A DNA stretch of 48,954 bases from a virus (IMGVR_UViG_3300030330_001909:1-48954), one strand, 5' to 3'. Numbered from the stretch's first letter, positions 8,296-48,780 are shown. Numbers and translations are program-made. Notes: generated by a model not told the origin, from the sequence alone.

Positions 8296-9843
8296 ATGGA
8301 AGAAATAAAGTTAGTTAAAGAACTGGCTTTTGGCGATAGTGCTAGAAGTCAGGTCTTAACTGGCGTTAAAAAGTTGACTAACGCAGTTAGTTCAACGTTA
8401 GGCGCGAGTGGTAAATGTGTTATACTTGAGGATAAAAATGGTAATCCTGTTATAACAAAAGATGGAGTTACAGTTGCTAACTCTGTAACGTTGCAAGATC
8501 CATTAGAAAACATAGGATCTACACTAATTAAACAAGCAGCACAACGTACAGTCAAAGACGCTGGTGATGGAACTACTACAGCAACTGTATTAGCTGAAGC
8601 TATAATAGACGAGTTTAACAAACACAGTGAGCTAGATACTTTAAGGAATATAAAAGAAGGTATTAATTTAGGTGTTGATAATGTAATTAAATATCTAAAA
8701 AAACAAAGTAAAAAAATTAGTGGTAAAAAGATTGATCAAGTAGCTACTATATCTGCAAATAATGACAAAGAACTAGGTGACATAATATCTAACGCTTTTA
8801 AATTAGTAGATGAAACAGGAGTAGTTATAATGGAAATAAATGACGAACCTGAAACATTAGTAGAACTTATAGAAGGTTTTGAATATAATGGATCGTTAAA
8901 GTCACATCATTTTATAACAAATAAAGACAAAGGTACTTCTGAACTAGAAAATCCATATGTTTTAATAATAGAATCTAAAGTAGAAAACGTAAGAAAAATT
9001 CAAAACGTATTAGAATATATTATTAAAAACAAAAAAAGCTTATTACTAATAGCTGATGTAGATCCACAAGTATCCGCTGCATTAGCAATGAATAAAATAA
9101 AAGGTAATATAAAAGTTAATATTATTGATGCACCTACATACGGTTTAAATAAAAAAGAAACTTTAACTGATTTATGCTTAGTTACTGGTGCTACTTTAAT
9201 TAATGAAGAGCTTGGTGATGATATGGATCTTATACAACCAGAACATCTAGGTAAATGTAAAAAATCTATTACAAACAACCATCATACTATATTAAAAGTT
9301 GATACTTCAACTAATGAAAAAGTTCAAGAAGTAATAAGTAATTTATATAATCAACTTGCTAAATCAAATAATGCTAATAAAAATTTAATTATAGAAAAAA
9401 GATTAGCAAAGTTAAAAGCTAAAATGGCTATAGTAAAAGTTGGTGCAAACTCTGATATAGAGTTAAAAGAAAAAAAAGATAGAGTTGAAGATGCTATTTG
9501 CGCTACTAAAGCCGCGATTAAAGAAGGTATAGTATCTGGTGGTGGTATAGCTTTATTAAACGCTTCACAAAAACTAAAGCCAAAAAGCATAGGTGAAGAA
9601 GTTTTATATTGTGCTATAAAAAAACCATTTGAAATTATACTTAAAAACGCTGGTGTTGAAGAATATGAAACTCCAAATGTCGAAGGAAAAGGATTAGACG
9701 TGGTTACAGGAAATACGGTGGATATGGTAAAAGCCGGAATAATAGATCCTTTACTAGTAACTAAAAGTGCGTTACAAAACGCGGCTTCTGTAGCTACAAC
9801 TATAATGAGTACTGATTGTGTAATAAACAATGTTAGAGTATGA
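8296..9843 (+). CDS. groL: Phage chaperonin GroEL (Cpn60)
   Basis: ITKDGVTVA, AGDGTTTATVLA, KKDRVEDA, EGIVSGGG, GIIDP motifs; lacks the GGM tail. Confidence 0.97.
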   Translation: MEEIKLVKELAFGDSARSQVLTGVKKLTNAVSSTLGASGKCVILEDKNGNPVITKDGVTVANSVTLQDPLENIGSTLIKQAAQRTVKDAGDGTTTATVLAEAIIDEFNKHSELDTLRNIKEGINLGVDNVIKYLKKQSKKISGKKIDQVATISANNDKELGDIISNAFKLVDETGVVIMEINDEPETLVELIEGFEYNGSLKSHHFITNKDKGTSELENPYVLIIESKVENVRKIQNVLEYIIKNKKSLLLIADVDPQVSAALAMNKIKGNIKVNIIDAPTYGLNKKETLTDLCLVTGATLINEELGDDMDLIQPEHLGKCKKSITNNHHTILKVDTSTNEKVQEVISNLYNQLAKSNNANKNLIIEKRLAKLKAKMAIVKVGANSDIELKEKKDRVEDAICATKAAIKEGIVSGGGIALLNASQKLKPKSIGEEVLYCAIKKPFEIILKNAGVEEYETPNVEGKGLDVVTGNTVDMVKAGIIDPLLVTKSALQNAASVATTIMSTDCVINNVRV

Positions 9844-10100
9844 AAGCAATTGGGAAATATATAGTTATTGATCCTGTTGATGAATCAAGCTCTACAACTA
9901 AAGGAGGTTTATTATTAGGTGAAAAACAAAGAGAAGACATTAGATATAGAAAAGCTAAAGTAATAGAACTTGGCTCTGATGTACAAGTATTAAAAAAACA
10001 TGATGAAGTTTATTACGATAAAGCTGCTGGATTTAATATTGAAATAAAATCACAGAAGTTTAAAGTAATAAAAGAGATGGATGTAGTAATAGTATTATGA
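9840..10100 (+). CDS. groS: Co-chaperonin GroES (Cpn10)
   Basis: TTKGGLLL mobile loop, KVIELGS; ATGA overlap with groEL. Confidence 0.9.
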   Translation: MKAIGKYIVIDPVDESSSTTKGGLLLGEKQREDIRYRKAKVIELGSDVQVLKKHDEVYYDKAAGFNIEIKSQKFKVIKEMDVVIVL

Positions 10101-20466: not shown

Positions 20467-20683
20467 TATAAGAAAAATTAGTATTGGATCTGATTATAAA
20501 AATGATGCTATGCATTATTCTATAGGTCAAGAAGTTTATGGTGGTCATACTATTTGTGATATATTAAACAACGAAGAAAGCGGAGAATATTCTATTTATA
20601 TTAAAAAAAATAATGAAGTATTACCGTGGAAAAAGTTTAATAGAAATATGGCTGTATCTGTTGAGTTTGATTTAAACTATTAA
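20459..20683 (+). CDS. Hypothetical protein
   Basis: 74-aa ORF. Confidence 0.8.
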   Translation: MSNIRKISIGSDYKNDAMHYSIGQEVYGGHTICDILNNEESGEYSIYIKKNNEVLPWKKFNRNMAVSVEFDLNY

Positions 20684-21291
20684 TGAAATCTTTATACAGT
20701 TTTATTATTAAACCGTTTGAAAAAAGGTATGATAATGTAAAAAAAATAGGAGATAAATCTCTTATTTTAAATACTAGTATTGAACCTCACGAGTTTGTTA
20801 GTAAAAAAGCTGTAGTTGTTTCTACTCCTGCAGCTTTTAATACTGATACAAAAATAGGTGATATAGTATATGTGCATCACAATATATTTAGAAGATGGTA
20901 TGATCAAAAAGGTAGAGAACGTAATAGTTCTACTTATTTCAAAGATGATTTATACTTTTGTAATCTAAGTCAAGTATACGCGTATAAACAAGATGGTAAA
21001 TTAAAATGCCATTGGAAATATTGTTTTGTATCTCCTATTAAAAATAACAATACTCTAACAACAGATAAAGAACAAAACCATATTGGGATATTAAAATATT
21101 CTAATAAGTTCTTAGATGATCTAGGATTAAAACCTGGAGCACTTATTACGTTTACACCTAATTCAGAGTTTGAATTTATTATAGATGGTGAACGACTTTA
21201 TTGTATGAAATTTAATGATATAGCCCTTACACATGAATACGAAGGAAACGAGAAAGAATATAATCCAAGCTGGGCGCAAAGCTGTAATTGA
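20683..21291 (+). CDS. Tandem GroES-like protein
   Basis: Two GroES-like units: KAVVVSTP...IGDIVYV and GILKY...LKPGALITF...IDGERLYCMKFNDI. Confidence 0.65.
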   Translation: MKSLYSFIIKPFEKRYDNVKKIGDKSLILNTSIEPHEFVSKKAVVVSTPAAFNTDTKIGDIVYVHHNIFRRWYDQKGRERNSSTYFKDDLYFCNLSQVYAYKQDGKLKCHWKYCFVSPIKNNNTLTTDKEQNHIGILKYSNKFLDDLGLKPGALITFTPNSEFEFIIDGERLYCMKFNDIALTHEYEGNEKEYNPSWAQSCN

Positions 21292-32000: not shown

Positions 32001-35000
32001 ATGGCTGAGTCAAGAGTAGTTTTCACTAAGTCTAAAATGAACAAAGACTTAGATGAAAGAATACTAACACCTGGAGAATACAGAGATGGATTTAATATAT
32101 CTGTTAGTAAATCAGAAGGTCCTGATGAAGGAGTAGTTGAAAATGTTTTAGGTAATAGTCAATTAACTAATTACACATGGAATAATGCTACTGATGTAGA
32201 GATTATAGGTGTATATACAGATACTAACACTGATAGAATATTTTTATTTGCAACTAACTATAGTGACTCGTCTGAAGATCAATTAAGTAATTTTGCTCCA
32301 GGTAGTTTTCTTGACGGAGGTGGTAGATCTAGACCAGGCGCACAATGTTTTATAGCTTATAAAGATTTAAGAACAGGTGATGAAGATATTTTAGTTTCAG
32401 GAAGTTTTTTAAATTTCTCTAAAACACATCCTATATATGCTGTTGATCTTGTAGAAGATTTATTATTTTGGACTGATAATAGAAATCAACCTAGAAAAAT
32501 AAATGTAAATACAGCTATTGCAAATCCTGAAACTTATTACCTAAATGAAGACCATATATCTGTTTCTAAGTATATGCCTTATAAACCTTTACAACTAGTT
32601 TTTTTAGATAGCGGGTCTTGGCAGTCTTCAATGATAAACGAAACTGAAGAATACTTAGCACCAAATGCTTTGTGGCCTGTAAAAACTGTAATTGCGGCTA
32701 ACAATGCTTTACAGTTTGAAAAGTTTAATAAAGACGTTGGTAATTTTTCTTCTCAAATGTATTTTATTAATTTAAATTTTCCAGAGTTAGGAGTCTTTAA
32801 ATTACAAAATAAACCAAATGAACTAGAAATAACATATAACTGGCCAACGCCTGATTATCCTTATTCTACAGGAGCAGAAATAAAAGACGCAGTAGATGCA
32901 GCAGCTGCAAGATTTATAGATCCTGCTACAAGAAAAGCATTTGAAGCTAATGATGTTTTAGCTTTTTTCTATAAAAATCCTGAGTATAATGTAGATTATG
33001 ATGGTGATGAAGATTATTTAAAAAATAAATTTATAAGATTTAGTTATAGATTTAAATATGATGATGGTGAATATTCGTTAATGGCGCCGTTTACTCAAGC
33101 AGCTTTTGTTCCTAAACAGTATGGTTATTTTATAGACTCATCATTTAAGACTCTAGCTACATCTATGCCTACTGCTGCTAATACGCAGCCTGTAGGTGCA
33201 CCGGCTAGAAAAGACGAAAGAGACGCTGCTGCTACAGGTGTAGTTAAATGGATGGAAAACCAAGTATCTACTATTGACTTTAATTTATTATTGCCTGAGC
33301 CTTTTGGAAGTAATCAAGCTTCTCAACAACAACATTTTGCAGATGATTTTAAAGTTGAGTCTATACAGATTTTAGCTAAAGAGTCTGACGGTTTATCAAT
33401 AAAAGTTATAGAAGAAATAGATATATCTACAGCTTTTAGTGGTACAGATAGATTTTATATATATAGATATTTATCTAACAAACCTTTTAAAACTTTACCT
33501 GAAGCTGTTTCTACTAGAGTACATGATAAAGTACCTATAAGAGCTTTAGCTCAAGCTACTACAGGTAATAGGGTTATGTATGGTAACTTTATAGAAAAAC
33601 ATGGTTCACCAGACTTTTTAAATTACTTTTTAGGCTATACACAAAAACCAAAATTAGAAGTTACTCCTGTATTTAGACAACAAAGAAAAGAATATCCTAA
33701 TCATACTGTTAAGCAAAATAGATCTTATAAAGTTGGTGTAGTACTTGTAGATAGATATGGTAGATCATCTAACGTAATATTAAGAGATCCTTCACAGTCT
33801 TTAGGCATAGGGCAAAAAGATTCTACTATATACGCTCCATATTCTGGAGGCGGAAAATCTCCTCTTAATTGGCCTGGTAATAGTATTACAGTTAACTTCG
33901 TAGATACTATCCCTACAACACCTTTTAAAGGTTATCCTGGTGTATTTAGTAATGATAACCCGTTAGGATACTATAGTTATAAAATAGTTGTGCAACAACA
34001 ACAACAAGAATACTACAATGTATATCTACCTGGTGCTACCTCTGGTATTATAACTTTTAGTGGTCAACTAGGTGATAGTACTGCAGCTGGAGATAAACCT
34101 CAATATGTAAGAACTACTCAGTTCTCTAATATAGCTTTATTTGGAGACAATATAAATAAAGTGCCAAAACAATTAGCTGATGTTGGCCCTACTGAAGAGA
34201 TATATGGTAGTGAAACATTATTATTTCCAAGAGTTGTTACTACATATATTGTAACTTCAAGTAATATATCTACTGATGCAAGTGTAACCGGTTATATAGA
34301 TCAATTAGCAGTATCTGAAAGTTCTCAAATTAAAGGTAAATTTACAAGTACAGTTAATTCTATAATATCTTTTAATGATTTAGGAAAGTGGACTTCACAA
34401 AATAATTCTTCTGGAGTATCAATAGCTAACTCATCTTATCCTAACGATTTAACAGATTATATAGATCCTTTATATTTAGGCGCGTCTGCTAATCCATTTG
34501 TTGCACAAATATCTACAGATTTTATTATTGGTTTATCTGCAGTAACACAAAATACTCCAAAGTTTTCTAGAGCATTAAACGTTTTTGAAACAGATCCTGT
34601 AGAATCTCAAATTGAAATATATTATGAGTCGTCAACTAGTGGTAGAATAGATTTACTTAACAATGATATAACTAGTGGTACTGGTTTTGTTGACGCTGAT
34701 AATGTAAATTTCACGTTAGCTTTACCTGAAAGTTCTGACGGTACAGGAACGCCTGTAGTAGTAGCGCAAGTAGAACCACTGTTAAATGATGGATCTGCTG
34801 CTGGCTATGGCACAGTTACATTAGATTCAGTAAAAAATAAAAATGATTATGATTTTACTAGTGACTTTCAATTAACACCTACTGCAGCTAGTCAATATAA
34901 TTTAGAATATATAGGCCCTGGTATACCTGTAGTGTCTGACTTAGATGTGTCTACTCTTGATTTTGATTTTACAGTAAACGGTGTTATTGCACATGATTCT

Positions 35001-35489
35001 TCAGTCAATAATCAAAGTGTTACAAACGTAGCGCCTGTTGCTGGTAATGATTGGGCAACTGCAAAAGCCGCTGCTTTAGACACAAGTAAGACAAACCCAG
35101 GAGGCCCTGGTGATACAGTATTAAACTCTACATTTTTTATAAACTATGGTTTTGCACCTAATGATGATTATTTTAGAAATGGTTGTGTTAATCCACTTAA
35201 TTACTATGATGGTGTATCATTTGATGGTAGTGGTGGAGTAAATCCACCTGCAGGTAGTGGAGATATAATAACTACTGTAAGTGATTTACTTACATTAGGT
35301 GTTTTTGAAATAGTAAATCAACCTACTCCAGGGCAGTTTAGACTTTACACTCAAGGTGGACCACCGTCTGTAGGTATCCAATGTGACACTATAGCAGCTC
35401 CTTCAGGGACTTATAATTTAACACTTAGAGTTACTGATAGATCAGGCTCGGGTGAATCTTCAGATTTTGATTTTGATTTAGTACTTTAA
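32001..35489 (+). CDS. Tail stabilisation/nozzle protein, N-terminal part (P22 gp10 / crAss muzzle-like)
   Basis: KMNKDLDER..GEYRD, LLFWTDNRNQPRKIN, RFSYRF, NRVMYGNF; Ig-like C-terminus. Confidence 0.75.
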   Translation: MAESRVVFTKSKMNKDLDERILTPGEYRDGFNISVSKSEGPDEGVVENVLGNSQLTNYTWNNATDVEIIGVYTDTNTDRIFLFATNYSDSSEDQLSNFAPGSFLDGGGRSRPGAQCFIAYKDLRTGDEDILVSGSFLNFSKTHPIYAVDLVEDLLFWTDNRNQPRKINVNTAIANPETYYLNEDHISVSKYMPYKPLQLVFLDSGSWQSSMINETEEYLAPNALWPVKTVIAANNALQFEKFNKDVGNFSSQMYFINLNFPELGVFKLQNKPNELEITYNWPTPDYPYSTGAEIKDAVDAAAARFIDPATRKAFEANDVLAFFYKNPEYNVDYDGDEDYLKNKFIRFSYRFKYDDGEYSLMAPFTQAAFVPKQYGYFIDSSFKTLATSMPTAANTQPVGAPARKDERDAAATGVVKWMENQVSTIDFNLLLPEPFGSNQASQQQHFADDFKVESIQILAKESDGLSIKVIEEIDISTAFSGTDRFYIYRYLSNKPFKTLPEAVSTRVHDKVPIRALAQATTGNRVMYGNFIEKHGSPDFLNYFLGYTQKPKLEVTPVFRQQRKEYPNHTVKQNRSYKVGVVLVDRYGRSSNVILRDPSQSLGIGQKDSTIYAPYSGGGKSPLNWPGNSITVNFVDTIPTTPFKGYPGVFSNDNPLGYYSYKIVVQQQQQEYYNVYLPGATSGIITFSGQLGDSTAAGDKPQYVRTTQFSNIALFGDNINKVPKQLADVGPTEEIYGSETLLFPRVVTTYIVTSSNISTDASVTGYIDQLAVSESSQIKGKFTSTVNSIISFNDLGKWTSQNNSSGVSIANSSYPNDLTDYIDPLYLGASANPFVAQISTDFIIGLSAVTQNTPKFSRALNVFETDPVESQIEIYYESSTSGRIDLLNNDITSGTGFVDADNVNFTLALPESSDGTGTPVVVAQVEPLLNDGSAAGYGTVTLDSVKNKNDYDFTSDFQLTPTAASQYNLEYIGPGIPVVSDLDVSTLDFDFTVNGVIAHDSSVNNQSVTNVAPVAGNDWATAKAAALDTSKTNPGGPGDTVLNSTFFINYGFAPNDDYFRNGCVNPLNYYDGVSFDGSGGVNPPAGSGDIITTVSDLLTLGVFEIVNQPTPGQFRLYTQGGPPSVGIQCDTIAAPSGTYNLTLRVTDRSGSGESSDFDFDLVL

Positions 35490-35490
35490 T

Positions 35491-37371
35491 ATGGCAACAA
35501 CAGTATTCGTAGATTATTATAATTCATTTTGGTTAAAAAAAGTTGTATATAGAGGCACTCTAGATACTAGTGTTAGCCCTGTACAACCGTGGCCTTATCC
35601 AGCTACAGTTGGTGGAGAAGATCCATATAGAGGTGGTTATGGTTCTACATTTCCAGGTTTACCTTGGAGAGGTGCTAGCGACGGTTATCCTGAGTTTCCA
35701 TCAGGCGCTGCAGATAGTGAAAATTATAATTACCAAGAAGTAGAAAACTGGGTTGTAGAAGAAGCTAGAATTAGAGGTGGATTTAATGGTGTATCTTTAG
35801 ACTATGGAGCTAAGGCATATTTAAAAGAAGATAGTAATGCTCAAGAAATTAGACCTAATGCTTTAATATATTCTGGTTTGTATAACTCACGAACAGGTAT
35901 TAATCAAACAAATGTTTTTTCAGTAGGTGAAGCTATTACTAAAGCAGTTGATCCACAAAAAGGTAGTATACAAAGATTATATGCAGAAGATACTAACTTA
36001 ATAGTATTTCAAGAAGACAAAGTAAATAGAGCTTTAATAGATAAAGATGCTATATTTTCTGCAGAAGGTGGAGGCACTGTTACATCGAGTAATTTAGTTG
36101 TTGGTCAAATAACACCTTATGTAGGTGAGTTTGGTATTAGTAAAAATCCAGAGTCTTTTGCTGTGTTTGGTTATAGAAAGTATTTTGCAGACAGAGACAG
36201 AGGTTCTATAATGAGATTATCTAGAGATGGATTAACTGAAATATCTCAATATGGTATGTCAAACTTTTTTAGAGATTTATTAAGAAATGTAGAAGAAGAT
36301 TACAAACCAATTGAATATGCAGGTGCTACATTTAGTAGTTTAACCACTGGTCCACCTAGTTTTATAACTGTTACATCATCTGTTGATGCAGCTAATATTT
36401 CTATAGGATCTTTAATACTATATAGAAGCGGTACGCCAGGTGCTTATGTTTATACAAATGCTGGGATTTTAGGTTTTCCTGTATATGTTAGAGGTGTTGT
36501 TGGGGCTCTTGTGTATACAACTATAGAGCCTTCTAGCCCAGGCGTAGGTGAAGAACTAGTGTTTAGAACTTTTGACAAAGACAAAGTACAAGGTGGTTGG
36601 GATACATATGATAGATTTTATACTATATCTATACGAGACCCACAGGTTGGTCAAGCACCTACTAAAGCCGGTGAGGGTAATGAAGATGACTTTAATCAAA
36701 CAGTTGTATTTGATGAGCAAGTTTTAGGCTGGACATCAAGATATAGCTATGTACCAGACTTTATTTTTAGTATTAAAAATGATTATTTTACTACAAAAAA
36801 TAGTCAAGTATGGAAACATAATGATGAAACAAGTAATACTAGAAATGAGTTTTATGGTGCTGCTACTCAACCTTCTGCTGTTAAACTAGTATTTAATAAC
36901 AATGTAAATATAAATAAAAACTATTTAACAATTGGTTATGAAGGTAGTAATGGTTGGCAAGTAGATTCATTTGTATCTGACTTACAAAGAACTTTTGAAG
37001 TACCTAGTGATTATGCTAATCCAGTTCCTGATCCATATGAAAACCAAGAAGATAAAACAGCTCAAGTAAGAAGTTACTATGAAGGTGCTTATGACGATGC
37101 AGGTAATGTATATCCTGCTGCTTTGAATCAACCTATTAGAAGAGCAGGGTTTGTTAGGAAAGAAGGTAAGTACGTGGCTGAATTAAAAAGTAATAGTGAT
37201 CCAAGGCCAGGTGAAGTTATATTTGGACCTGACTCTTATGGTGGTTATCCATCATCTGGTATTAAAGGATATTTTGCTACAGTAGTAATATCAACTGATG
37301 CAGGTACAGATCCTGCAGGAGAAAAAACAATATTTTCTGCATTTAGTAATAATGTAGTATCATCAACTTAA
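35491..37371 (+). CDS. Tail stabilisation/nozzle protein, C-terminal part
   Basis: GSIQRLYAEDTNLIVFQEDK, GISKNPESFA, MRLSRDGLTEIS, FVRKEGKY. Confidence 0.75.
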   Translation: MATTVFVDYYNSFWLKKVVYRGTLDTSVSPVQPWPYPATVGGEDPYRGGYGSTFPGLPWRGASDGYPEFPSGAADSENYNYQEVENWVVEEARIRGGFNGVSLDYGAKAYLKEDSNAQEIRPNALIYSGLYNSRTGINQTNVFSVGEAITKAVDPQKGSIQRLYAEDTNLIVFQEDKVNRALIDKDAIFSAEGGGTVTSSNLVVGQITPYVGEFGISKNPESFAVFGYRKYFADRDRGSIMRLSRDGLTEISQYGMSNFFRDLLRNVEEDYKPIEYAGATFSSLTTGPPSFITVTSSVDAANISIGSLILYRSGTPGAYVYTNAGILGFPVYVRGVVGALVYTTIEPSSPGVGEELVFRTFDKDKVQGGWDTYDRFYTISIRDPQVGQAPTKAGEGNEDDFNQTVVFDEQVLGWTSRYSYVPDFIFSIKNDYFTTKNSQVWKHNDETSNTRNEFYGAATQPSAVKLVFNNNVNINKNYLTIGYEGSNGWQVDSFVSDLQRTFEVPSDYANPVPDPYENQEDKTAQVRSYYEGAYDDAGNVYPAALNQPIRRAGFVRKEGKYVAELKSNSDPRPGEVIFGPDSYGGYPSSGIKGYFATVVISTDAGTDPAGEKTIFSAFSNNVVSST

Positions 37372-40308: not shown

Positions 40309-43300
40309 ATGCCAGAATACGTATTAATGGATTCAACGGGTTATGAGTGGACTGTTAGTGAGCAAGACTTACCAACATTCATGGAGCAATACCCAGATGC
40401 TAGGTTAATTGAAGAAAAAGAAACTGAAGGTGAACCTGTTACTGAATCATTAACTGTAGATACTACAATAGATCCTATAGAAACAGAAACGACTACAACT
40501 CTAGAAGCAAACAACAACGTTAAAGGTGTACTAGACAAATACGATCCTGAACGTGTAGCTTTAGTTGAAAGCTTCAGAGGATTAGATATAGATAAAAGAA
40601 GTAAGTTAAGTGAGCAAGACTTTGCGTTTGGTAAAGAAGGTAATTGGGACAACATAAGTGATGAAGGTAAACAAATCATAATGGCTGATTATACTTTTCC
40701 TAAAGGTTATGAAGGACCAAAAGATTTTAATGCTTTTAAAAATAAAATAGTTCAAGATGAAATTGAATATGAAGTAGGATCAGATACTGCTGATATAGAA
40801 ACAAGCGCTTATGATGACTATAATGTATTTGGTAGTGGGTTAGAAAGTTCTCAAGAAAAAGCTAGAAAAAGAAACCAATATAAAACTGATGTTAGTAATG
40901 CTGTTTCAAAAGTAGAAGAAGGTGTTATGCCTACACATGTACTTGATGGTAAACTAGGTGGCGTATTAATAGGACAAGAAGAAAAAGTAGTAGATGATTT
41001 AAGAAGCATGTTCAAAGGTTATGGATTTAAATTTGATAAAGATAAGTCAGGTTTAAGTTATTTTACTGACGACATGATAGTTACTGCTGGCAATGGAAAT
41101 AAAATAAAAATAAAGCTAGATAATTGGACTGATGATGGAGATATAGAGCAAGCTCAAAAATTAAAAAGTTTTTTAGAACAAAACAAAGAAGAATATAAAG
41201 CACCTAATTACCAAGACATGGTTAAAGCTATGGCATCATTAGATGGTGAAGCTTTAGAAAACATGAAAAGAGTTACAGAAGAACAAGATCAAAAGTGGTA
41301 TGAAAACTGGTGGGCTGATGAGATAGACAAAGTAGACGAAGATAAGGCTTCAGAGTGGAGAAATATTTATGACGAAGATTTAGTAAAGCAAGAAACTCAA
41401 AGAGTTGAAAATGATATAGTAAAATTAAACAAAGAGTTTGCACTTAATGAGGCAAAAATAAACGATTATACTAACAAGGTAGCAGCATTACAAGCTCAAA
41501 TAGATGCTGGCAGCCTTGGGCCTGATGAAATAATAGAAAAACAAAACGAATTAAATGCATTACAACAGTCTTTAAAAATAGAAGGACAAGCATTACAAGA
41601 TAGATATAGATCTGAAGTTAAACCAGCTGTAGCAGATTTAAACTTAGTAGCTGCTAAACAAACTTTAGTTGAAGAAGGTAGAGGTGACTTTGGTATAATG
41701 ACAACTAAATTTGCTGGTGGTGTATATGATTCATTAGGTACTTTCTACAATCAAATAGCTCTTGCTTTTCGTCAAGGAGATATTGAAGACATTGCTAATG
41801 GTGATGAAGAAAAGTTAAAACAATTATTAGATAGAGAAGCTAAAATGGTTATTTACGATAAGTTCACAAAAGACGTTGACGTAAGTAATGAATATGAAAA
41901 AGCTTTTAATAACAGTATGGCTGGCGCTGCTTATAAATCTATAACTGAAATGGTTATTGGTCAAATTACAACTCTTCCGCTAGCGGCTATTCCTGTTGCT
42001 GGTCCAATTTTACAAAGAGTAGCATTTGGTAGTATGATGGGTGGTATGGTAGCTGGATTTGAAGCTCAAGAAATGCAAAGTGAAGATTTTGCTGATATGA
42101 CACCACGAGAAAAAGCAGCGTATCAATCAACTATTGGAACTGTTATTGGAACAATTGAAGGTGTAGTAGGACCAGCTGGTAGGTTTATAGCAGCACCTGT
42201 TAAAGCAGGTTTAACTAATTTAATAAAGCAATACGGAGGAAAAACACTGCGTAATGCTGTATTAAAAGAAACATTAAGAAGAACAGCTGGTAAAGCTGTT
42301 GGTAGTGCAGTTGTTAAAAGAACAGCATTAGACGTACTTCAAGATTTTGGTAATAAAGCTTTAAGCAGAGAAGGTTTAGGTACAGCAGCTACCATGGCAG
42401 GTATTGAAGGGCTTACTGAAGGTATACAAGAAGCTGCGCAAATGGGTATAACTGAGATATGGAGAGAAAATACAGAGGCTAACGGTAAGTTGTGGGAAGA
42501 AATAAGTTTAGAAGATGCTGTTAGTAAAATAATGCAAGCCACTACTTTAGGTGTTATGGCTGGTGGTCCATTTGGTGTTATAGCTGGCGGTGCTAATGCG
42601 TCTAGAAGTGGTACTATGGATATGATTAGTGATCAACAGTTTACTTTATGGAAAAGATATTTACTTGATCCTAAATGGCAAAAGCTTACTAGCGATAAAG
42701 AAATGTTAGCTGTACTAGATCCTGATAATGAATTAACAAAAGAAAAGGCAGATCTACTATTAAGAGAATATAGAAATATGGGTGGCATGCTTAGAGAAGT
42801 TGATAATATGGGTCTAACTACTAAAGGTGAAAAACAAGCTTATAAACTAATAGAGCAAAAACAAAAACTACAAAAGCAAATAGATAAAGCCACTGACAAA
42901 GCATTAGTTAAAAGACAAAGAGAAGAGATATCAGCTATTAACGAAGTGCTAGAAGAGATTAGTGTTAATGAAAACTTTGAAGTAGCATATGAAAGAGGAT
43001 TAGCTGAAACTGCTAGACGAGCTGAAATGTCAGACAAAGGTTTTGTTTTATTAACAGATCCTGCTGATTTTAATCAAGCTATGAAAGATATAGGTATTAC
43101 AGAAGATCTTTCAGGAACACCAGGTTATAACGATATTGATGGTACTATTTATATTAATGATAAAGTTGCTAGAGATCTAAGGCAAATAGGTGTAAGCTCT
43201 CACGAGTTACTTCATGGTGTAACTGGTAAACAAATAAAAGCTTTAGGTTTAACAGCAGAACAAAAAGCTGATTTAGTAGATGACTTTAAAAGTAGATTGT

Positions 43301-46300
43301 CATCAAAAGAATTTGATGTGGTAGCACAACGTATAGAAGCTTATGGAACAAACCCAGAAAATGCTACGTCTGAAGAATGGTTTAATGCTTTTGTAGAAGG
43401 TATTGTCAATGATGATATAAAATATGCTGAAGGTACTGCAGTAAAAATGGGTAACTTTTTAGCTGACAAGTTATTTAAACCACTAGGTTTTAGACAAGCA
43501 AACTTTGCTAATGGTAGATCTGTATATAGATTTTTAAAGAGTTATGGTCAACAGTCTAGGCGTATAGCTAGAGGTCAACAAGATACTTTCACTGGTGATG
43601 TAGCAGCTATAGTAGATCAAGGTATAGATACACCAGCTGTAGGTTTAGCTAGTAAAGTTTCAAATGTAGCAGCTACTGACTTAGCCGCACAATATAAAGA
43701 TGGTACAATAACCAATGAAGGTACAATTGATTTTATACAACAATATCATAAGCTAGGTAAAAAAGCTATGGGCTTTGATCAAGCTAAAGGTGATATTGCA
43801 GAATCTGAAGCTATAAGCTTTTTAAATAAAGAGTTTCCTAGTATAATGAAAAACTACGATCCTACTAGAGAATTAGAGTTTTCAACCTATTTAAATAATG
43901 TATTACCTTTTAGAGCTGTTGATTTTTATGAGCAACAAATAGGTGATAAAGCTAAAACAACAAGTACAGATTCAGATAAAGCAAAACAATTAGTAGCTGA
44001 TGAGACTTCTCCTAGAGATACTAGAACTGATAGAGAAATAAGACAAGATGAAAGAAAAGGAGTTAAAGTTAGAGAAAAAACACCAGGTGTATATAATGTA
44101 GATAAAGTAGTAAAAGCTATTAGATCTAAGGCTAAACAACAAAACATGAAGGGTAAAACCTTAAAGCAATTAAAAGGTTTTGCTTTACGTGAAGTAGTTG
44201 ACATGATATCTAGAGATAATAAAGATCTTGCAGATTCTATGTTTAGGAAATTAGAAAAAAATTCTGATCTTAATAAACCAGAAATGTTAGCTATACAGAA
44301 CTTCATAAACTCTAACGTAGACATGGCTAAAGGTTCTTTAATTGAAGGATATACAAGCGAATTTAAAGCTACAGGTGTAGTTAATAAGTTGTTAGAAAAG
44401 TTTTATAACAAACGTAGTGTAAGATCTAAAACAGGGCCAGGTTTAAAAGTACAAATTAAAAAACCTAATATAAGCAATACTGACTTTAAAGAAACATTTG
44501 GAATTATAGGTAATGATAGAGCTAAGTGGAATCAAAAAGTACCAGCTAGTCAAGGTGGTGTTAGTGATATACTAAAAGGATTTGTAAGAAACTTAGATCA
44601 AGTAATATCTAGTCAAGAAATAAGAGAACAGTATATAGCAGACGGTGATAAAGCTGATGCGTTAAGATCATTATCAGATGGAATACCATCAGGATTTTTT
44701 AGTAAATTGACAGTAGAAAATTTAGGTAAAACTTTTGGTAAGCTAAATGAAGGTCAAAAAGAAACATACTTAGCTAACATCCCTTACTTTATAGAATTAA
44801 TTACTGCTGGAGAAAGTGTTAATTCAGCTTTTGATACAGCACTTCCTAACGACTTTTTAACTAAAAAAGTTAAAGATAAAATAGTAGATAATAACACAAG
44901 AAAAACTATTAAAGAAGATTGGAATACTATAGTAGATCAATTTCCTAAAACTTTATATAAGTCTAAAAAGTTTAACAAGACTAAGTTAAATGAATACCTG
45001 CACACAGCTTTTGCTGAGCAAACTAGTAGAGAACTAGTAAGAGATCTATTAGGTATTAACAAAGATGGTTTAGATTGGAGAAGTACTAAACAAATAACCT
45101 CTTATGTTAGTTCTTTAAAAGAATATTTTAGAGATTTAAGAAAAGACTTTAATAGTGATTTAGAGTTTTTTAAATATGTAATTACTCATTTTGAAACTAC
45201 ATTTACTGGTTCGGCTAAAATTGGTGGATTACCAAATCATGTATGGAATAAAGATGGTATATTAGTAGAAGGAAAGAAAACTACTAAAGGACCAGGTATT
45301 AGAAATGGTATATTTAATAATAGAACAGAATTTTATAATGTACTTTTAAAACCTTTAGATACAGAGAATAAATTAAAACCAGTGCGTGGTGGTTTTACTT
45401 ATGATGGTAATTTAATAAAAATAAATAGAGCTCCTCAATCGATTGTTGCTACTAAAAAATATTTAGACGAGTTTTTAGAAACAGGTAAATTAAGTAATGC
45501 AACTTTAAAAACAAGTTATAATGATGCTATTGGTAATCAAAACGCTATAATAAGATTATTAAAGTGGTATAAAGATAAAGAAAAAAATACTAAATCTGAT
45601 ATTAATATAAATGATATAGGTATGTTTTTCGTTAATTCCACTGGAGATATGACTGCTATTTTAAGATCAGCATATTTTATGGATAGTATAGCTTTAAGTG
45701 ATAGTAAAAATCCTAAAGATTATAGGTTTGAACATAACCCACCTGTAAGAGTTATGCAAGTATATATGGCTCAATTTGTTAATGGTACTATAAATGAAGC
45801 TCAGTTAAAAGAAAAGTTTGCAGATACATCTGTTAGTGTTATACCTGAATTAATGGATAAAGCTATTAATATTAGGTATAAAGATACTATACCTATGAAC
45901 TCTACAAGTAGGTTTGATAGGTATTATAATCCTACTACTTACGGTAAGTTCCCATTTGAAATGACAGTGTACACGCCTGTGTTAAATAGCAAAGGAGAAG
46001 TAACATCGTTTAAAAAAGAAGTAAAAGGTAAAGATTTAAGGCAAGCTTATCAAGAAGAACAAGCTGCGTTAAAAGCAGATAAAGAATTAGGCTTTGCTAG
46101 TAAAGTTGCTACAACAAAAAATGTAACTAATGAAGAGTTGATAGATCAATTTGAAAAAATGGATCAATCACTAGTTAACGGAAATAAAATAAATCAACCT
46201 GTTAAAAAGATTAGAGTGTTTGATTTTGACGATACATTAGCTACAAGTAATAACTTAGTATTTGCAACTAGAGGTGATGAGCGTTTAGAATTAAACGCAG

Positions 46301-48780
46301 AAGAGTTTGCTAAAGATGGTGAGAGATTATTAAGCGAAGGGTATAAGTTTGACTTTACAGATTTTAATACAGTTAGAGATGGTGGGCGTGGTCCTTTATT
46401 TGAGCTTGCTAAAAAGATAAAAGCAGCTAGAGGTAATGAAGATCTTTACGTGTTAACAGCTAGAGCACCTGAAGCACAAACAGCTATATATGAATTTTTA
46501 AAATCACAAGGACTTGAATTTAAGAAAAGTAATATAGTAGGATTAGGTGATTCAACAGGTGCAGCTAAAGCACAATGGATGATAAGTAAATATGCTGAAG
46601 GTTACAATGACTTTTATTTTGCTGATGATGCATTTGCTAATGTTAATGCTGTTAAAAAAGCTTTTGAAGTATTAGACGTTAAAGGTAGAGTACAACAAGC
46701 AAAAGCAGATCAAGGATTTAGAAGTGTAGTAGATGTTAATCAAAAGTTTAACGACATAATACAACAGAATAAAGGTATTAAATCAGATGTTGTTTTTTCA
46801 GATGTAAGAGCTAAACTAGCTGGGCAGAAAAACGATAAGTTTAAATTTTGGATACCTTATTCTGCCGAAGATCTAACTGGTTTAGTATATCCATTATTAG
46901 GCAAAGGTAAGAAAGGTAATGCTGATATGCAGTTCTTCAAAGAGATGTTGTTTGATCCTTTAGCTAGAGCTAATGCTGGTATATCAGCCTCAAGACTTCA
47001 AATGATGGAAGACTTTAAAGCTCTTAAAAAAGTTTTAAATGTACCTAAAAATATTACTAAAGAAAACGAAACAGGATTTACTACTGAGCAAACTATACGT
47101 ATGTATATATGGAACTCACTTGGAGTTGATATTCCAGGCGTAAGTAAATCAGAACTTAATAAAGCTATTGAGTATGTAGATTCAAGAGATCAACTAAAAA
47201 CTTTTGCTCAACAACTTATTAATATAACTAAAGGTGATGGTTGGTCAAAGCCTAACGCTGATTGGTTTGCAGGTACTATACAAACAGACTTACTAGATAT
47301 TTTGAATACTACTAAGAGATCAAAATATATGGAAGAGTTTAATAATAATGCTAATATAATATTTAGTAAAGAAAATTTAAATAAGCTTGAAGCAATATTT
47401 GGTAGCAAGTATAGAGAAGCTATAACTAACATGCTTCGTAGAATAAAGACAGGTAAAAATAGAATAAGTGGTGGTAACAGGTTAAGTGACAAAGTATTAA
47501 ACTACATTAATGGTAGTATTGGTGCGATCATGTTTTTTAATATGAGATCAGCTGTACTACAAACTATATCATCTATTAACTTTATAAACTGGAGCGATAA
47601 CAACCCATTAAAAGCTGGTAAAGCATTTGCTAATCAAAAACAATATTGGTCTGATTTTAAAACTTTAATGAACTCAGAGTTTCTTAGAGATAGAAGATCA
47701 GGATTAAGACTAAACATAAATGAAAACGAAATAGCAGATCTTGCTAAGACAGCTAAAAACAAAGGTAAAGCTGCTATAAGTTATATACTTAGAAAAGGTT
47801 ATTTACCTACACAATTTGCAGATAGTTTTGCTATTGCATCAGGTGGCGCTACGTTTTATAGAAACAGAATAAATACTTATTTAAAACAAGGTTTATCACA
47901 AACAGAGGCTGAATCTAAAGCAATGCAAGATTTTAGAGAGATCGCTGAGGTATCTCAACAGTCTAGTAGACCAGATAAAATATCACAACAGCAAGCTAGT
48001 GATTTAGGTAGGGTATTACTTGCATTTGCTAATACACCTATGCAGTATGGTAGATTAACTAAAAGAGCTTATCAAGATCTAATAGCTGGTAGAGGAGATG
48101 CTAAATCTAACATTAGTAAAATAATATATTATACGTTTGTACAAAATATGATATTTAATGCTTTACAACAAGCAGTATTTGCATTAGGATTTGGTGATGA
48201 TGAAGATGATGAAAAGAAAGAAAAGAAATATATGGACACAGCTAATGGTATGGCTGACTCAATATTGCGTGGATTAGGTATAGCTGGTTCAGCAGTGTCT
48301 GTAGCTAAAAACTTTTTACTTGATATATACGAAAGATCAGGAAGGTCTAGACCAGAGTATGTTGATTCAGTATATAAGTTGTTACAGTTTTCACCACCTA
48401 TTAGTTCTAAGATATCTAAGATAAGACAAGCTGCGTGGATGTTTGATAGTAAAAAACGTAGACAAGAAATGATTGACAAAGGATTTAGCTTAGATAATCC
48501 TGCTTATGAAGCTTTTGCTAAAGTGTTTACTGCAACTACAAATGTTCCGTTAGATAGATTATATTTAAAGTTAGATAATATAGAGCACGCATTAGCTGAA
48601 GACACTGAAACATGGCAACGCGTAGCTAATCTACTTGGTTGGCCGACGTGGCAATTAGAAGATAAAGCTCCTGTTAAAAAGAAAAAGAAAAGTAGCAAAA
48701 GAGGAGGTTATAAATCTAGAACAGGTATTAAAAGAAGAAGAACAAAAGTTAAAAAGAAAGTTTCATCAAGAACTTTGTAG
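40309..48780 (+). CDS. Giant multidomain ejection (polyvalent) protein: hydrophobic region, zincin, sigma-like, unknown and HAD domains
   Basis: 2823 aa; HELLH aa 965-969; YDPTRELEFSTYL aa 1183-1195; DFDDT aa 1972; third gene of the ejection cluster. Confidence 0.8.
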   Translation: MPEYVLMDSTGYEWTVSEQDLPTFMEQYPDARLIEEKETEGEPVTESLTVDTTIDPIETETTTTLEANNNVKGVLDKYDPERVALVESFRGLDIDKRSKLSEQDFAFGKEGNWDNISDEGKQIIMADYTFPKGYEGPKDFNAFKNKIVQDEIEYEVGSDTADIETSAYDDYNVFGSGLESSQEKARKRNQYKTDVSNAVSKVEEGVMPTHVLDGKLGGVLIGQEEKVVDDLRSMFKGYGFKFDKDKSGLSYFTDDMIVTAGNGNKIKIKLDNWTDDGDIEQAQKLKSFLEQNKEEYKAPNYQDMVKAMASLDGEALENMKRVTEEQDQKWYENWWADEIDKVDEDKASEWRNIYDEDLVKQETQRVENDIVKLNKEFALNEAKINDYTNKVAALQAQIDAGSLGPDEIIEKQNELNALQQSLKIEGQALQDRYRSEVKPAVADLNLVAAKQTLVEEGRGDFGIMTTKFAGGVYDSLGTFYNQIALAFRQGDIEDIANGDEEKLKQLLDREAKMVIYDKFTKDVDVSNEYEKAFNNSMAGAAYKSITEMVIGQITTLPLAAIPVAGPILQRVAFGSMMGGMVAGFEAQEMQSEDFADMTPREKAAYQSTIGTVIGTIEGVVGPAGRFIAAPVKAGLTNLIKQYGGKTLRNAVLKETLRRTAGKAVGSAVVKRTALDVLQDFGNKALSREGLGTAATMAGIEGLTEGIQEAAQMGITEIWRENTEANGKLWEEISLEDAVSKIMQATTLGVMAGGPFGVIAGGANASRSGTMDMISDQQFTLWKRYLLDPKWQKLTSDKEMLAVLDPDNELTKEKADLLLREYRNMGGMLREVDNMGLTTKGEKQAYKLIEQKQKLQKQIDKATDKALVKRQREEISAINEVLEEISVNENFEVAYERGLAETARRAEMSDKGFVLLTDPADFNQAMKDIGITEDLSGTPGYNDIDGTIYINDKVARDLRQIGVSSHELLHGVTGKQIKALGLTAEQKADLVDDFKSRLSSKEFDVVAQRIEAYGTNPENATSEEWFNAFVEGIVNDDIKYAEGTAVKMGNFLADKLFKPLGFRQANFANGRSVYRFLKSYGQQSRRIARGQQDTFTGDVAAIVDQGIDTPAVGLASKVSNVAATDLAAQYKDGTITNEGTIDFIQQYHKLGKKAMGFDQAKGDIAESEAISFLNKEFPSIMKNYDPTRELEFSTYLNNVLPFRAVDFYEQQIGDKAKTTSTDSDKAKQLVADETSPRDTRTDREIRQDERKGVKVREKTPGVYNVDKVVKAIRSKAKQQNMKGKTLKQLKGFALREVVDMISRDNKDLADSMFRKLEKNSDLNKPEMLAIQNFINSNVDMAKGSLIEGYTSEFKATGVVNKLLEKFYNKRSVRSKTGPGLKVQIKKPNISNTDFKETFGIIGNDRAKWNQKVPASQGGVSDILKGFVRNLDQVISSQEIREQYIADGDKADALRSLSDGIPSGFFSKLTVENLGKTFGKLNEGQKETYLANIPYFIELITAGESVNSAFDTALPNDFLTKKVKDKIVDNNTRKTIKEDWNTIVDQFPKTLYKSKKFNKTKLNEYLHTAFAEQTSRELVRDLLGINKDGLDWRSTKQITSYVSSLKEYFRDLRKDFNSDLEFFKYVITHFETTFTGSAKIGGLPNHVWNKDGILVEGKKTTKGPGIRNGIFNNRTEFYNVLLKPLDTENKLKPVRGGFTYDGNLIKINRAPQSIVATKKYLDEFLETGKLSNATLKTSYNDAIGNQNAIIRLLKWYKDKEKNTKSDININDIGMFFVNSTGDMTAILRSAYFMDSIALSDSKNPKDYRFEHNPPVRVMQVYMAQFVNGTINEAQLKEKFADTSVSVIPELMDKAINIRYKDTIPMNSTSRFDRYYNPTTYGKFPFEMTVYTPVLNSKGEVTSFKKEVKGKDLRQAYQEEQAALKADKELGFASKVATTKNVTNEELIDQFEKMDQSLVNGNKINQPVKKIRVFDFDDTLATSNNLVFATRGDERLELNAEEFAKDGERLLSEGYKFDFTDFNTVRDGGRGPLFELAKKIKAARGNEDLYVLTARAPEAQTAIYEFLKSQGLEFKKSNIVGLGDSTGAAKAQWMISKYAEGYNDFYFADDAFANVNAVKKAFEVLDVKGRVQQAKADQGFRSVVDVNQKFNDIIQQNKGIKSDVVFSDVRAKLAGQKNDKFKFWIPYSAEDLTGLVYPLLGKGKKGNADMQFFKEMLFDPLARANAGISASRLQMMEDFKALKKVLNVPKNITKENETGFTTEQTIRMYIWNSLGVDIPGVSKSELNKAIEYVDSRDQLKTFAQQLINITKGDGWSKPNADWFAGTIQTDLLDILNTTKRSKYMEEFNNNANIIFSKENLNKLEAIFGSKYREAITNMLRRIKTGKNRISGGNRLSDKVLNYINGSIGAIMFFNMRSAVLQTISSINFINWSDNNPLKAGKAFANQKQYWSDFKTLMNSEFLRDRRSGLRLNINENEIADLAKTAKNKGKAAISYILRKGYLPTQFADSFAIASGGATFYRNRINTYLKQGLSQTEAESKAMQDFREIAEVSQQSSRPDKISQQQASDLGRVLLAFANTPMQYGRLTKRAYQDLIAGRGDAKSNISKIIYYTFVQNMIFNALQQAVFALGFGDDEDDEKKEKKYMDTANGMADSILRGLGIAGSAVSVAKNFLLDIYERSGRSRPEYVDSVYKLLQFSPPISSKISKIRQAAWMFDSKKRRQEMIDKGFSLDNPAYEAFAKVFTATTNVPLDRLYLKLDNIEHALAEDTETWQRVANLLGWPTWQLEDKAPVKKKKKSSKRGGYKSRTGIKRRRTKVKKKVSSRTL

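What the first reader, a model, noticed from the sequence alone, without database searches (positions are those of the whole stretch)
43642..46731. Giant virion protein is segmented by repeated G(L/F)xS(K/V) linkers: a likely self-cleaving polyprotein
Seen: GLASKV (aa 1112, nt 43642), GFFSKL (aa 1462, 44692), GFASKV (aa 1928, 46090) and GFRSVV (aa 2136, 46714) fall at apparent domain borders. They give segments of 350 aa (sigma-like), 466 aa (unknown), 208 aa (HAD) and 687 aa. They follow a zincin domain (IYIN...SHELLHG aa 965-969, EEW aa 1022). Known: zincin domains in phage polyvalent proteins are proposed to release effector domains. Inference: these are the cis-cleavage sites that liberate injected effectors.
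Basis: partly seen in the sequence, partly recalled or inferred. Interest (0 to 1): 0.85.

Follow-up and report, generated by a model that had tools for sequence, protein, structure and literature searches.

The report
Cut-here marks in giant phage protein
A giant protein of a marine bacterial virus carries a short repeated mark at the joints between its swappable modules, and relatives that lack the protein's zinc-protease-like domain also lack the mark, so the protease likely cuts the protein there into separate, probably injected, pieces, although no cut has been observed.

Summary
Observation confirmed, motif redefined. The four motifs lie at the stated places in a 2,823-aa ORF (40309-48780), at joints between a zincin, a sigma-region-2-like module, an unknown EHxxP module, a T4-Pnkp-like HAD phosphatase fold and a conserved C-terminal domain. 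The family (thousands of members) uses [FYMLA]-S-[KR], mostly K-F-S-K; the glycine belongs to this lineage only. The motif is enriched about sixfold between zincin and C-terminal domain in two held-out sets, survives cargo swaps, and is kept at protein level. Best new evidence: of 268 relatives, 40 lack the zincin and almost all lack the motif (1/40 and 2/40 at two joints, against 204/228 and 171/228). That equals only 2-11 independent events, and a family-wide test of motif-zincin co-variation was negative. Cultured Flavobacterium elemo phages have a homologous zincin and an [RK]-x-Q mark at comparable joints, which offers a bench test. Cleavage, its position, its timing and virion packaging are inferred. 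Autoproteolysis of such proteins was proposed in 2017; my ten searches listed no paper defining sites. The scan noted the same pattern before on other DNA, including probable members of this family.

The parts
40309..48780 (+). Giant ORF, 2,823 aa, last gene of the structural operon; probable ejection/cargo polyprotein
   Evidence: syntenic with giant 'structural protein' genes of Elemovirus, phi38:1 and phi13:2
40309..42999 (+). N-terminal region aa 1-897, weakly hydrophobic segments at aa 545-574 and 741-759; no marks
   Evidence: family profile matches giant proteins of elemo, phi38:1, phi13:2 at E 1e-26 to 3e-14; hydropathy
43000..43623 (+). Zincin-like metallopeptidase domain aa 898-1105; HELLH at nt 43201-43215, third ligand E1023 at nt 43375-43377
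   Evidence: E966, H969, E1023 invariant in 95 of 95 aligned rows; fold matches anthrax LF catalytic domain Z 6.6 and Pro-Pro endopeptidases Z 5.0-5.5
43642..43659 (+). Junction motif 1, GLASKV (aa 1112-1117)
   Evidence: family support weaker
43660..44691 (+). Module S1 (aa 1118-1461): sigma-70 region-2-like fold at aa 1118-1211, disordered linker aa 1213-1250 without a mark, then a domain without a fold match
   Evidence: SigB Z 10.3, rmsd 2.3, 90 aligned; ESM atlas lead 0.93; pLDDT
44692..44709 (+). Junction motif 2, GFFSKL (aa 1462-1467); best conserved joint in the family
44710..46089 (+). Module S2 (aa 1468-1927): swappable slot; EHxxP domain (EHNPP aa 1808-1812), possibly a His-Me-finger-type nuclease (inferred from motif and strand-helix order only)
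   Evidence: 92 of 137 slots carry this domain; H and R invariant in 46 rows; no Pfam or PDB match; replaced by an unrelated D..ExK domain in L084
46090..46107 (+). Junction motif 3, GFASKV (aa 1928-1933)
46108..46713 (+). HAD phosphatase module (aa 1934-2135), DFDDT from aa 1972, closest to T4 Pnkp 3'-phosphatase
   Evidence: Z 13.0, rmsd 2.4, 127 aligned; PNK3P E 0.039
46714..46731 (+). Junction motif 4, GFRSVV (aa 2136-2141)
   Evidence: kept as DQGFRSV in close relatives P0172-P0176
46732..48777 (+). Conserved C-terminal domain (aa 2142-2823) ending in a basic tail
   Evidence: 367 relatives in viral contigs; at least 6,505 proteins at E<=1e-20; no family match

Best explanation
The protein is a chain of exchangeable modules whose joints carry a short [FYMLA]-S-[KR] mark (G-[LF]-x-S in this lineage), and the mark is likely the cutting signal of the protein's own zincin domain, which would release a sigma-like module, a possible nuclease, a predicted RNA-end phosphatase and the C-terminal domain as separate proteins, probably after the protein is ejected from the virion into the host. 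Shown: marks, their place at joints, cargo exchange, invariant catalytic residues, joint absence of zincin and marks. Inferred: the zincin is active (invariant E966/H969/E1023); it reads the mark (co-absence, lineage-linked glycine); the protein is virion cargo (gene position, homology to proteins annotated as structural); cutting follows ejection (analogy to the proposal of Iyer et al. 2017; cutting inside the head is not excluded). The scissile bond is unknown; next to the near-invariant serine is my guess.
For: (1) Position: joints defined without the motif carry [FYMLA]S[KR] at 21/37, 23/35 and 27/47, controls 2-5. A weight matrix trained on set 1 gives 3.39 hits per 1,000 aa between zincin and C-terminal domain against 0.56 before and 0.51 after in 63 held-out proteins, and 3.53 / 0.70 / 0.52 in 64 more. 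(2) Modularity: L084 keeps S1 (78% identical) and HAD but has an unrelated module between GFFSKS and GFFSKV; L001 has an extra module between GKFSKT and GRFSKQ; the mark stays before the C-terminal domain in many HAD-less proteins. (3) One reader: marks at non-homologous joints of one protein resemble each other more than marks of different proteins (p 0.0001-0.025, n 26-37). (4) Protein-level: motif serines use both codon sets (71 AGY, 34 TCN of 105), Phe and Lys codons match background. (5) Co-absence: S1-end mark in 193/216 HExxH proteins, 11/12 variants, 1/40 zincin-less; pre-C-terminal mark 159/216, 12/12, 2/40; flanks stay alignable where the mark is gone (P0043 against P0031). (6) Among 51 proteins with S1b at least 60% identical to the query, glycine at -3 is at 87/104 sites with a query-like zincin and 1/47 sites with another zincin. 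(7) Elemo-lineage proteins have a homologous zincin (E 3e-16) and an [RK]-x-Q mark where similarity between relatives resumes (aa 2079 in two relatives).
Against: No cleavage data exist here. Co-absence rests on few independent events: 11 changes on the C-terminal tree (paired test S1-end p 0.008, pre-C-terminal p 0.125) but only 5 changes, 2 forced, on the S1 tree, not significant; the genes are mosaics and I enriched zincin-less proteins on purpose. Across 76 proteins, motif similarity did not follow zincin similarity once the C-terminal domain was allowed for (partial rho 0.077, p 0.15; the reverse 0.13, p 0.04). The glycine contrast is essentially two clades, and the whole N-terminal half travels with the zincin. 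Zincins reading EExxH, QExxH or HDxxH keep the marks. 57 of 216 HExxH proteins have no scoring mark before the C-terminal domain. The first joint is weak (15/47). Recombinant N4 vRNAP with an HExxH domain showed no degradation (PMC13434306, passages). AGY codons are over-used at two joints (76-77% against 38%), and query sites 1 and 3 share 12 identical bases, so some DNA-level copying may contribute.
Confidence: 0.68

Rival explanations
1. The zincin domain binds the marks but does not cut them: a docking code that folds or orders the chain for packaging and ejection, or keeps the modules quiet.
For: Explains co-absence and the retention of marks in 12 proteins with altered metal-site motifs; N4 vRNAP is intact and its C-terminal part inhibits the polymerase (PMC13434306).
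Against: The catalytic Glu position is Glu in 95 of 95 aligned rows and HExxH is intact in 216 of 228 zincins; one domain cannot bind four marks at once without oligomers.
Confidence: 0.12
2. The marks are cut by another protease, of the phage or of the host, and the zincin does something else, such as attacking peptidoglycan or a host protein.
For: Peptidoglycan digestion has been proposed for such domains (10.1101/2020.03.07.982082; phi24B preprint). Motif variants did not follow the zincin family-wide. The genome is about 79% complete, so a protease gene could be missing.
Against: It does not predict loss of the marks with loss of the zincin. No protease family was matched among the 43 different window ORFs scanned. 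A host enzyme would not easily explain phage-lineage variants shared by all joints of one protein.
Confidence: 0.09
3. The marks are scars of recombination: short shared DNA through which cassettes are exchanged and homogenised, with no role in the protein.
For: Swap points lie near marks; inserted cassettes come with a duplicate of the HAD tail; all four query serines are AGT and two sites share 12 bases.
Against: Both serine codon sets occur at one homologous joint (13 AGY, 16 TCN before HAD), other codons follow background; a DNA scar has no reason to vanish with the zincin.
Confidence: 0.06
4. The marks are structural end-caps of the neighbouring domains or chance look-alikes.
For: Short, degenerate motif; at the S1 end and after HAD it sits at a fairly fixed distance from the domain.
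Against: It follows or precedes unrelated folds; its distance to the C-terminal helix varies from 3 to 17 residues; it lies in low-confidence linkers while another disordered linker lacks it; zincin-less relatives keep the same domains without it.
Confidence: 0.05

Closest known systems
Phage-type polyvalent proteins with a zincin-like MPTase (Iyer et al. 2017, PMC5512222; passages read)
   Same: Large multidomain late-region protein joining unrelated domains with an HExxH...E peptidase; the paper proposes autoproteolytic release in the head or in the host.
   Different: In the passages seen no cleavage site or junction motif is named ('linker' has 0 occurrences in the main text). The modules here match no LPD family above cut-off. 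Here a candidate site, its lineage variants and its joint absence with the peptidase are defined.
Crassvirales cargo block, phi14:2 gp65-gp66-gp67 (10.1101/2020.03.07.982082; passages) and crAss001 cargo (PMC10172136; passages)
   Same: Bacteroidota-type podophage architecture, giant cargo gene after the tail genes, zincin domain, fused polyproteins 'likely cleaved'.
   Different: No RNA polymerase: the DFDDT here is a HAD motif. A sigma-2-like module takes its place. No sequence match to cultured phages by tblastn of the whole protein.
Coliphage N4 vRNAP gp50 (PMC13434306; passages)
   Same: Giant ejected protein with membrane-type N-terminus, enzyme in the middle, HExxH domain and helical C-terminal part joined by linkers.
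   Different: N4 vRNAP was reported intact as purified and carries a T7-type polymerase; its HExxH domain lies after the enzyme, here before all modules.
Flavobacterium Elemovirus gp18 (NC_055853.1, 3,694 aa)
   Same: Same gene position; homologous N-terminal region and zincin; modules exchanged at a repeated mark.
   Different: Mark reads [RK]-x-Q, modules are different, no sigma-like, EHxxP or HAD match.
Pro-Pro endopeptidases and anthrax lethal factor catalytic domain (fold matches only)
   Same: Zincin fold with HExxH and a downstream Glu; these are sequence-selective endopeptidases (recalled).
   Different: Z 5.0-6.6 with rmsd 4.5-4.6 and 10-15% identity: shared fold only; no toxin relationship is implied.

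Membership tests
Phage-type polyvalent protein with MPTase (Iyer 2017) | Large protein joining functionally unrelated domains | tested here: met
   zincin, sigma-2-like, HAD and two further domains
Phage-type polyvalent protein with MPTase (Iyer 2017) | HExxH on one helix, Glu on the next conserved helix, three-stranded sheet | tested here: met
   HELLH 965-969, E1023; three strands then helices in the model
Phage-type polyvalent protein with MPTase (Iyer 2017) | Encoded among late/virion genes | tested here: met
   follows terminase, portal and virion structural genes
Phage-type polyvalent protein with MPTase (Iyer 2017) | Packaged in the virion and delivered with the DNA | not testable with these tools
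   only GenBank 'structural protein' labels on syntenic homologues
Widespread phage MPTase clade with extra Asp three residues after HExxH | Asp three residues downstream of HExxH | tested here: not met
   HELLH-G-V-T; feature from PMC5512222
Self-cleaving polyprotein | Conserved signal at module joints tied to the built-in protease | tested here: met
   independence of events limited
Self-cleaving polyprotein | Observed cleavage that depends on the catalytic residue | not testable with these tools
   needs experiment
Crassvirales virion RNA polymerase polyprotein | DFDxD catalytic motif in a double-psi-barrel RNAP | tested here: not met
   DFDDT lies in a HAD fold
Sigma-70 family | Region 2 helical bundle | tested here: met
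   aa 1118-1211, SigB Z 10.3; most of the top 30 rows are sigma factors; Z under 13 for a helical bundle is not decisive alone
Sigma-70 family | Region 4 helix-turn-helix | tested here: inconclusive
   no match listed for aa 1250-1461; model searched whole
Sigma-70 family | Binds core RNA polymerase and directs promoter choice | not testable with these tools
   host unknown
T4 Pnkp-type HAD 3'-phosphatase | DxDxT motif I, DD motif IV and HAD fold | tested here: met
   DFDDT, FADD; Z 13.0 to 5uj0
T4 Pnkp-type HAD 3'-phosphatase | Acts on RNA/DNA 3' ends | not testable with these tools
   hint only: a P-loop kinase is inserted in this HAD in some relatives
His-Me finger (HNH-like) nuclease, for module S2 | Catalytic His at the end of a strand, second strand, helix with metal ligand | tested here: inconclusive
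   invariant His in EHxxP, strand-helix order fits; no Pfam, PDB or fold match; the pattern is recalled

The most novel reading that the evidence does not exclude
A very large family of marine Bacteroidota-type podophages injects one polyprotein that is cut by its own zincin at a short, lineage-tuned code into a host-takeover kit: a sigma-type factor for the host RNA polymerase, an exchangeable nuclease, an RNA-end healing enzyme and optional extras. The code lets new genes be plugged in, and it decays when the protease is lost. This is RNA-virus-style polyprotein processing in tailed DNA phages, with predictable sites in a cultured phage (Elemovirus gp18, near aa 1685, 2081 and 2304).
Probability: 0.45. 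Interest if true: 0.88.

Novelty: new variant of a known kind. Interest (0 to 1): 0.72.

Why it matters
Self-processing of phage polyvalent proteins by their metallopeptidase has been a hypothesis since 2017, without a site to test. A defined mark, its loss together with the protease, and a cultured phage with an equivalent mark turn this into a direct experiment with predicted fragment sizes. If true, the marks also cut thousands of unannotated giant phage proteins into their real units, which exposes new host-takeover and counter-defence modules, such as a virion-delivered sigma-like factor, and gives a new sequence-selective protease whose specificity differs by lineage.

Tried and rejected
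Complex prediction of the zincin (alignment A4) with zinc and a 32-residue peptide around motif 3 gave 'no answer', score 0.00; it is not used as evidence either way. Pfam, PHROGs and tblastn against cultured phages found nothing for the whole protein. Single-sequence locus scans with the zincin and with S1-S2 gave 0 and 1 locus. Foldseek gave no match at E<=0.001 in the PDB for either model; the viral library gave two unnamed or uninformative relatives. S2 could not be identified: ESM atlas 0.77, PDB profile, Pfam on 46 members, 30 homologues without Pfam, GmrSD_C absent; both VIA lists were filled by the HAD domain, so S2 was barely tested by fold. Of 87 cargo segments only 6 had a Pfam match at E<=0.005. 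The family-wide Mantel test did not favour the zincin. The significant paired test on the C-terminal tree was weakened by my own check on the S1 tree. A DNA-palindrome reading of TTTAGTAAA was dropped after the codon count. Automatic motif picking missed the query's own fourth site, so those counts are slightly low. In one search three variant zincins were mislabelled 'absent'; one search corrects this. In one search P0050 was labelled E/QExxH but reads HDILH. No scan of bacterial genomes or of metagenome contigs was completed.

Full report
1. Setting. The window is a 48,954-base linear virus record, estimated 79% complete. It encodes GroEL and two GroES-like proteins, terminase, a P22-like portal and virion proteins. 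Its terminase is 45% identical to Flavobacterium elemo phages and matches Cellulophaga, Tenacibaculum and Maribacter phages; the portal gives the same set. A Bacteroidota host is therefore likely, not shown. The finding lies in the last ORF, 40309-48780, 2,823 aa. Elemovirus, phi38:1 and phi13:2 have a giant 'structural protein' gene in the same place, and a profile of the N-terminal region matches all three (E 1e-26 to 3e-14).

2. The observation. Two AlphaFold models (mean pLDDT 81 and 79) and fold comparison place them between domains. The zincin matches run to about aa 1101-1107 (lethal-factor catalytic domain Z 6.6, Pro-Pro endopeptidases Z 5.0-5.5) and the sigma-region-2 match starts at aa 1118-1119 (SigB Z 10.3, rmsd 2.3, 90 aligned). 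The HAD fold ends at aa 2133-2135 (T4 Pnkp phosphatase Z 13.0). Motifs 3 and 4 are in stretches with pLDDT under 50; a long disordered linker inside S1 (aa 1213-1250) has no motif, so not every linker is marked.

3. The family. The C-terminal domain found 367 relatives in viral contigs, of which 80 were kept, and at least 6,505 proteins. Of 75 full-length proteins, query included, 68 have HExxH and 7 have EExxH or QExxH. E966, H969 and E1023 are invariant in 95 of 95 rows of an alignment with 12% mean column identity; part of those rows were found with a pattern containing HELLH, but the 59-row set found through the C-terminal domain shows the same three invariants. The family motif is not G-x-x-S. 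In 42 non-redundant proteins FSK occurs 56 times between zincin and C-terminal domain (12.5 expected), 9 times before the zincin (8.8) and 12 times in the C-terminal domain (8.3). With joints defined by motif-free anchors, [FYMLA]S[KR] is at the S1 end in 21/37, before HAD in 23/35 and before the C-terminal domain in 27/47, against control means of 2-5; after the zincin it is 15/47 against 5-8, which is weak, partly because that anchor was poor and K-E-S-R/K variants are common there. A matrix trained on this set gave 3.39 hits per 1,000 aa in the cargo region against 0.56 and 0.51 outside in 63 held-out proteins and 3.53 against 0.70 and 0.52 in 64 others.

4. Modules are exchanged at the marks. 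Similarity to S1 ends at the mark in most relatives while what follows differs. L084 has S1b 78% identical to the query, then an unrelated module with a D..ExK pattern between GFFSKS and GFFSKV; L001 has an extra module between GKFSKT and GRFSKQ. Of 137 S2 slots 92 hold the EHxxP domain; 21 of the other 45 match a loose PD-(D/E)xK-type pattern, some by chance. Two unrelated nuclease-like patterns in one slot suggest a nuclease slot, but neither is confirmed by a library.

5. Who reads the mark. Marks at unrelated joints of one protein resemble each other more than marks from different proteins (p 0.0001-0.025), which points to one reader per lineage. Codon use argues for the protein level: 71 AGY and 34 TCN among 105 motif serines, both sets at each joint, Phe and Lys codons at background; the AGY excess at two joints is unexplained. 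Among 51 proteins whose S1b is at least 60% identical to the query, those with a query-like zincin have glycine at -3 at 87/104 sites, those with another zincin at 1/47; trees show the two groups mixed for S1b and apart for the zincin. This is about one contrast, and a family-wide partial Mantel test on 76 proteins did not favour the zincin (rho 0.077, p 0.15) over the C-terminal domain (0.13, p 0.04). The strongest result came from a third set. Of 100 proteins found through S2, 12 had no zincin but kept the S1 and S2 regions and the C-terminal domain, and they had 0.33 marks in the 900 residues before the C-terminal domain against 2.71. I then enlarged the set, on purpose with a zincin-less seed. 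Of 407 proteins fetched, 334 were at least 1,850 aa; 268, query included, could be scored: S1-end mark in 193/216 HExxH, 11/12 variant and 1/40 zincin-less proteins; pre-C-terminal mark in 159/216, 12/12 and 2/40. The flanks remain alignable, for example DVKSRVQQAIVDKA in P0043 against DVKSKVQIAKFSKT in P0031. On the C-terminal tree this needs 11 changes and the S1-end mark goes with the zincin in 8 of 10 pairs (p 0.008), the pre-C-terminal mark in 3.6 of 10 (p 0.125). On the S1 tree it needs 5 changes, only 2 forced, and no test is possible. So the association is nearly absolute in sequences but rests on 2-11 events.

6. A cultured handle. Elemovirus gp18 (3,694 aa) has a homologous zincin (E 3e-16) followed by RFQA (1683), RQQK (2079) and RMQK (2302); a fourth R-x-Q at 2223 seems to lie inside a module. 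Four R-x-Q in aa 1650-2330 were reached in 18 of 5,000 shuffles, post hoc. In two relatives with a different first module similarity resumes exactly at aa 2079, a third keeps RFQA, RNQK and RKQQ around a different second module, and L169 has a C-terminal part that matches this family's profile (E 3.5e-14). phi38:1 gp101 and phi13:2 gp127 have no HExxH and no array of marks.

7. Mechanism. Most likely (0.68) the protein is packaged, ejected through the tail as other cargo proteins are thought to be (PMC10172136, passages), and cut by its own zincin at the marks into S1 (39 kDa), S2 (53 kDa), HAD (23 kDa) and the C-terminal part (78 kDa). Shown are the marks, their places, the exchange of modules and the link to the zincin; activity, bond, timing and delivery are inferred. 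Rivals are non-cutting docking (0.12), another protease (0.09), recombination scars (0.06) and structure or chance (0.05). The zincin-less lineages show that, if cutting occurs, some phages do without it or use another route.

8. Literature. Iyer et al. 2017 (PMC5512222; 12 of 27 passages) propose MPTase autoproteolysis, cite processed P1 DdrB and unprocessed N4 vRNAP, ArdC and TraC1, and name no site in what I saw. The phi14:2 preprint (2 passages) suggests cleavage of fused cargo or peptidoglycan digestion. The 2026 N4 paper (passages) notes the HExxH domain and reports no degradation of the recombinant protein. The phi24B preprint (3 passages) prefers peptidoglycan digestion. PMC8776804 (passages) was used for family names only. 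Ten searches, judged by titles and abstract starts, listed no paper on junction marks in such proteins; the library lacks most subscription journals and I saw no supplements. Earlier notes of this scan describe the same pattern in other genomes, three of them with similar sequence; they are not independent evidence.

9. Verdict. A new variant of a known kind: a polyvalent protein with a defined, protease-linked junction code. Interest 0.72, because it makes a standing hypothesis testable with predicted fragments, also in a cultured phage.

Noticed in passing
L029:8402-8986; also L040, L062, L067, L073: A P-loop kinase (AAA_33, E 6e-19) is inserted inside the HAD domain, giving a nested kinase-in-phosphatase like a rearranged T4 Pnkp; in L057 a similar kinase follows the zincin.
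   Followed up: partly
P0043, P0071, P0129, P0164, P0290-P0302 and others (40 proteins): Lineages of the giant protein without a zincin; the N-terminal region runs into the sigma-like module. Genome context not examined.
   Followed up: partly
L019, L020, L030, L031, L041, L042, L077; P0039, P0050, P0056, P0110, P0161 and others: Zincins with EExxH, QExxH or HDxxH in place of HExxH that mostly keep the marks; either alternative metal sites or inactive binders.
   Followed up: partly
L162:18719-29803 (Elemovirus gp18), L167-L171: Sister lineage with an [RK]-x-Q mark at module joints; its modules match no Pfam family above cut-off.
   Followed up: partly
window 48706-48777 (aa 2800-2823): GGYKS followed by a very basic tail, kept in many close relatives; could be a fifth mark or a nucleic-acid-binding tag.
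   Followed up: no
P0174 aa 899, P0176 aa 890, P0177 aa 961, P0178 aa 904: A G-[FY]-R-S string inside the zincin, ahead of the HExxH helix, in some close relatives, resembling their junction mark.
   Followed up: no
L001:9470-9994, L014:9458-10006, L029:9461-10006: Extra module between HAD and C-terminal domain (weak DUF6934 match in two) that ends with a second copy of the HAD tail plus mark, a trace of how cassettes are added.
   Followed up: partly
window 8296-9843, 9840-10100, 20683-21291: GroEL and two GroES-like genes, as in phi38:1-type phages.
   Followed up: no
window 32001-35489 and 35491-37371: Two adjacent ORFs match the two halves of one virion protein family (phrog_14478), the second with a weak crassvirus muzzle C-terminal match; a split gene relative to cultured phages.
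   Followed up: no
L163:741-12320 (MW202828.1): Syntenic 3,859-aa protein with two HExxH motifs and a repeated [GK]-Q-Q-D string, possibly another lineage's mark.
   Followed up: no
P0035, P0108, P0117, P0136, P0142, P0148 and others: A further HExxH (HEK[RKQL]H, HEEQH) after the C-terminal domain, also in several zincin-less proteins; not examined.
   Followed up: no
window 43642-43659 and 46090-46107: All four motif serines use AGT and motifs 1 and 3 share 12 identical bases; AGY is also over-used at two joints family-wide.
   Followed up: partly
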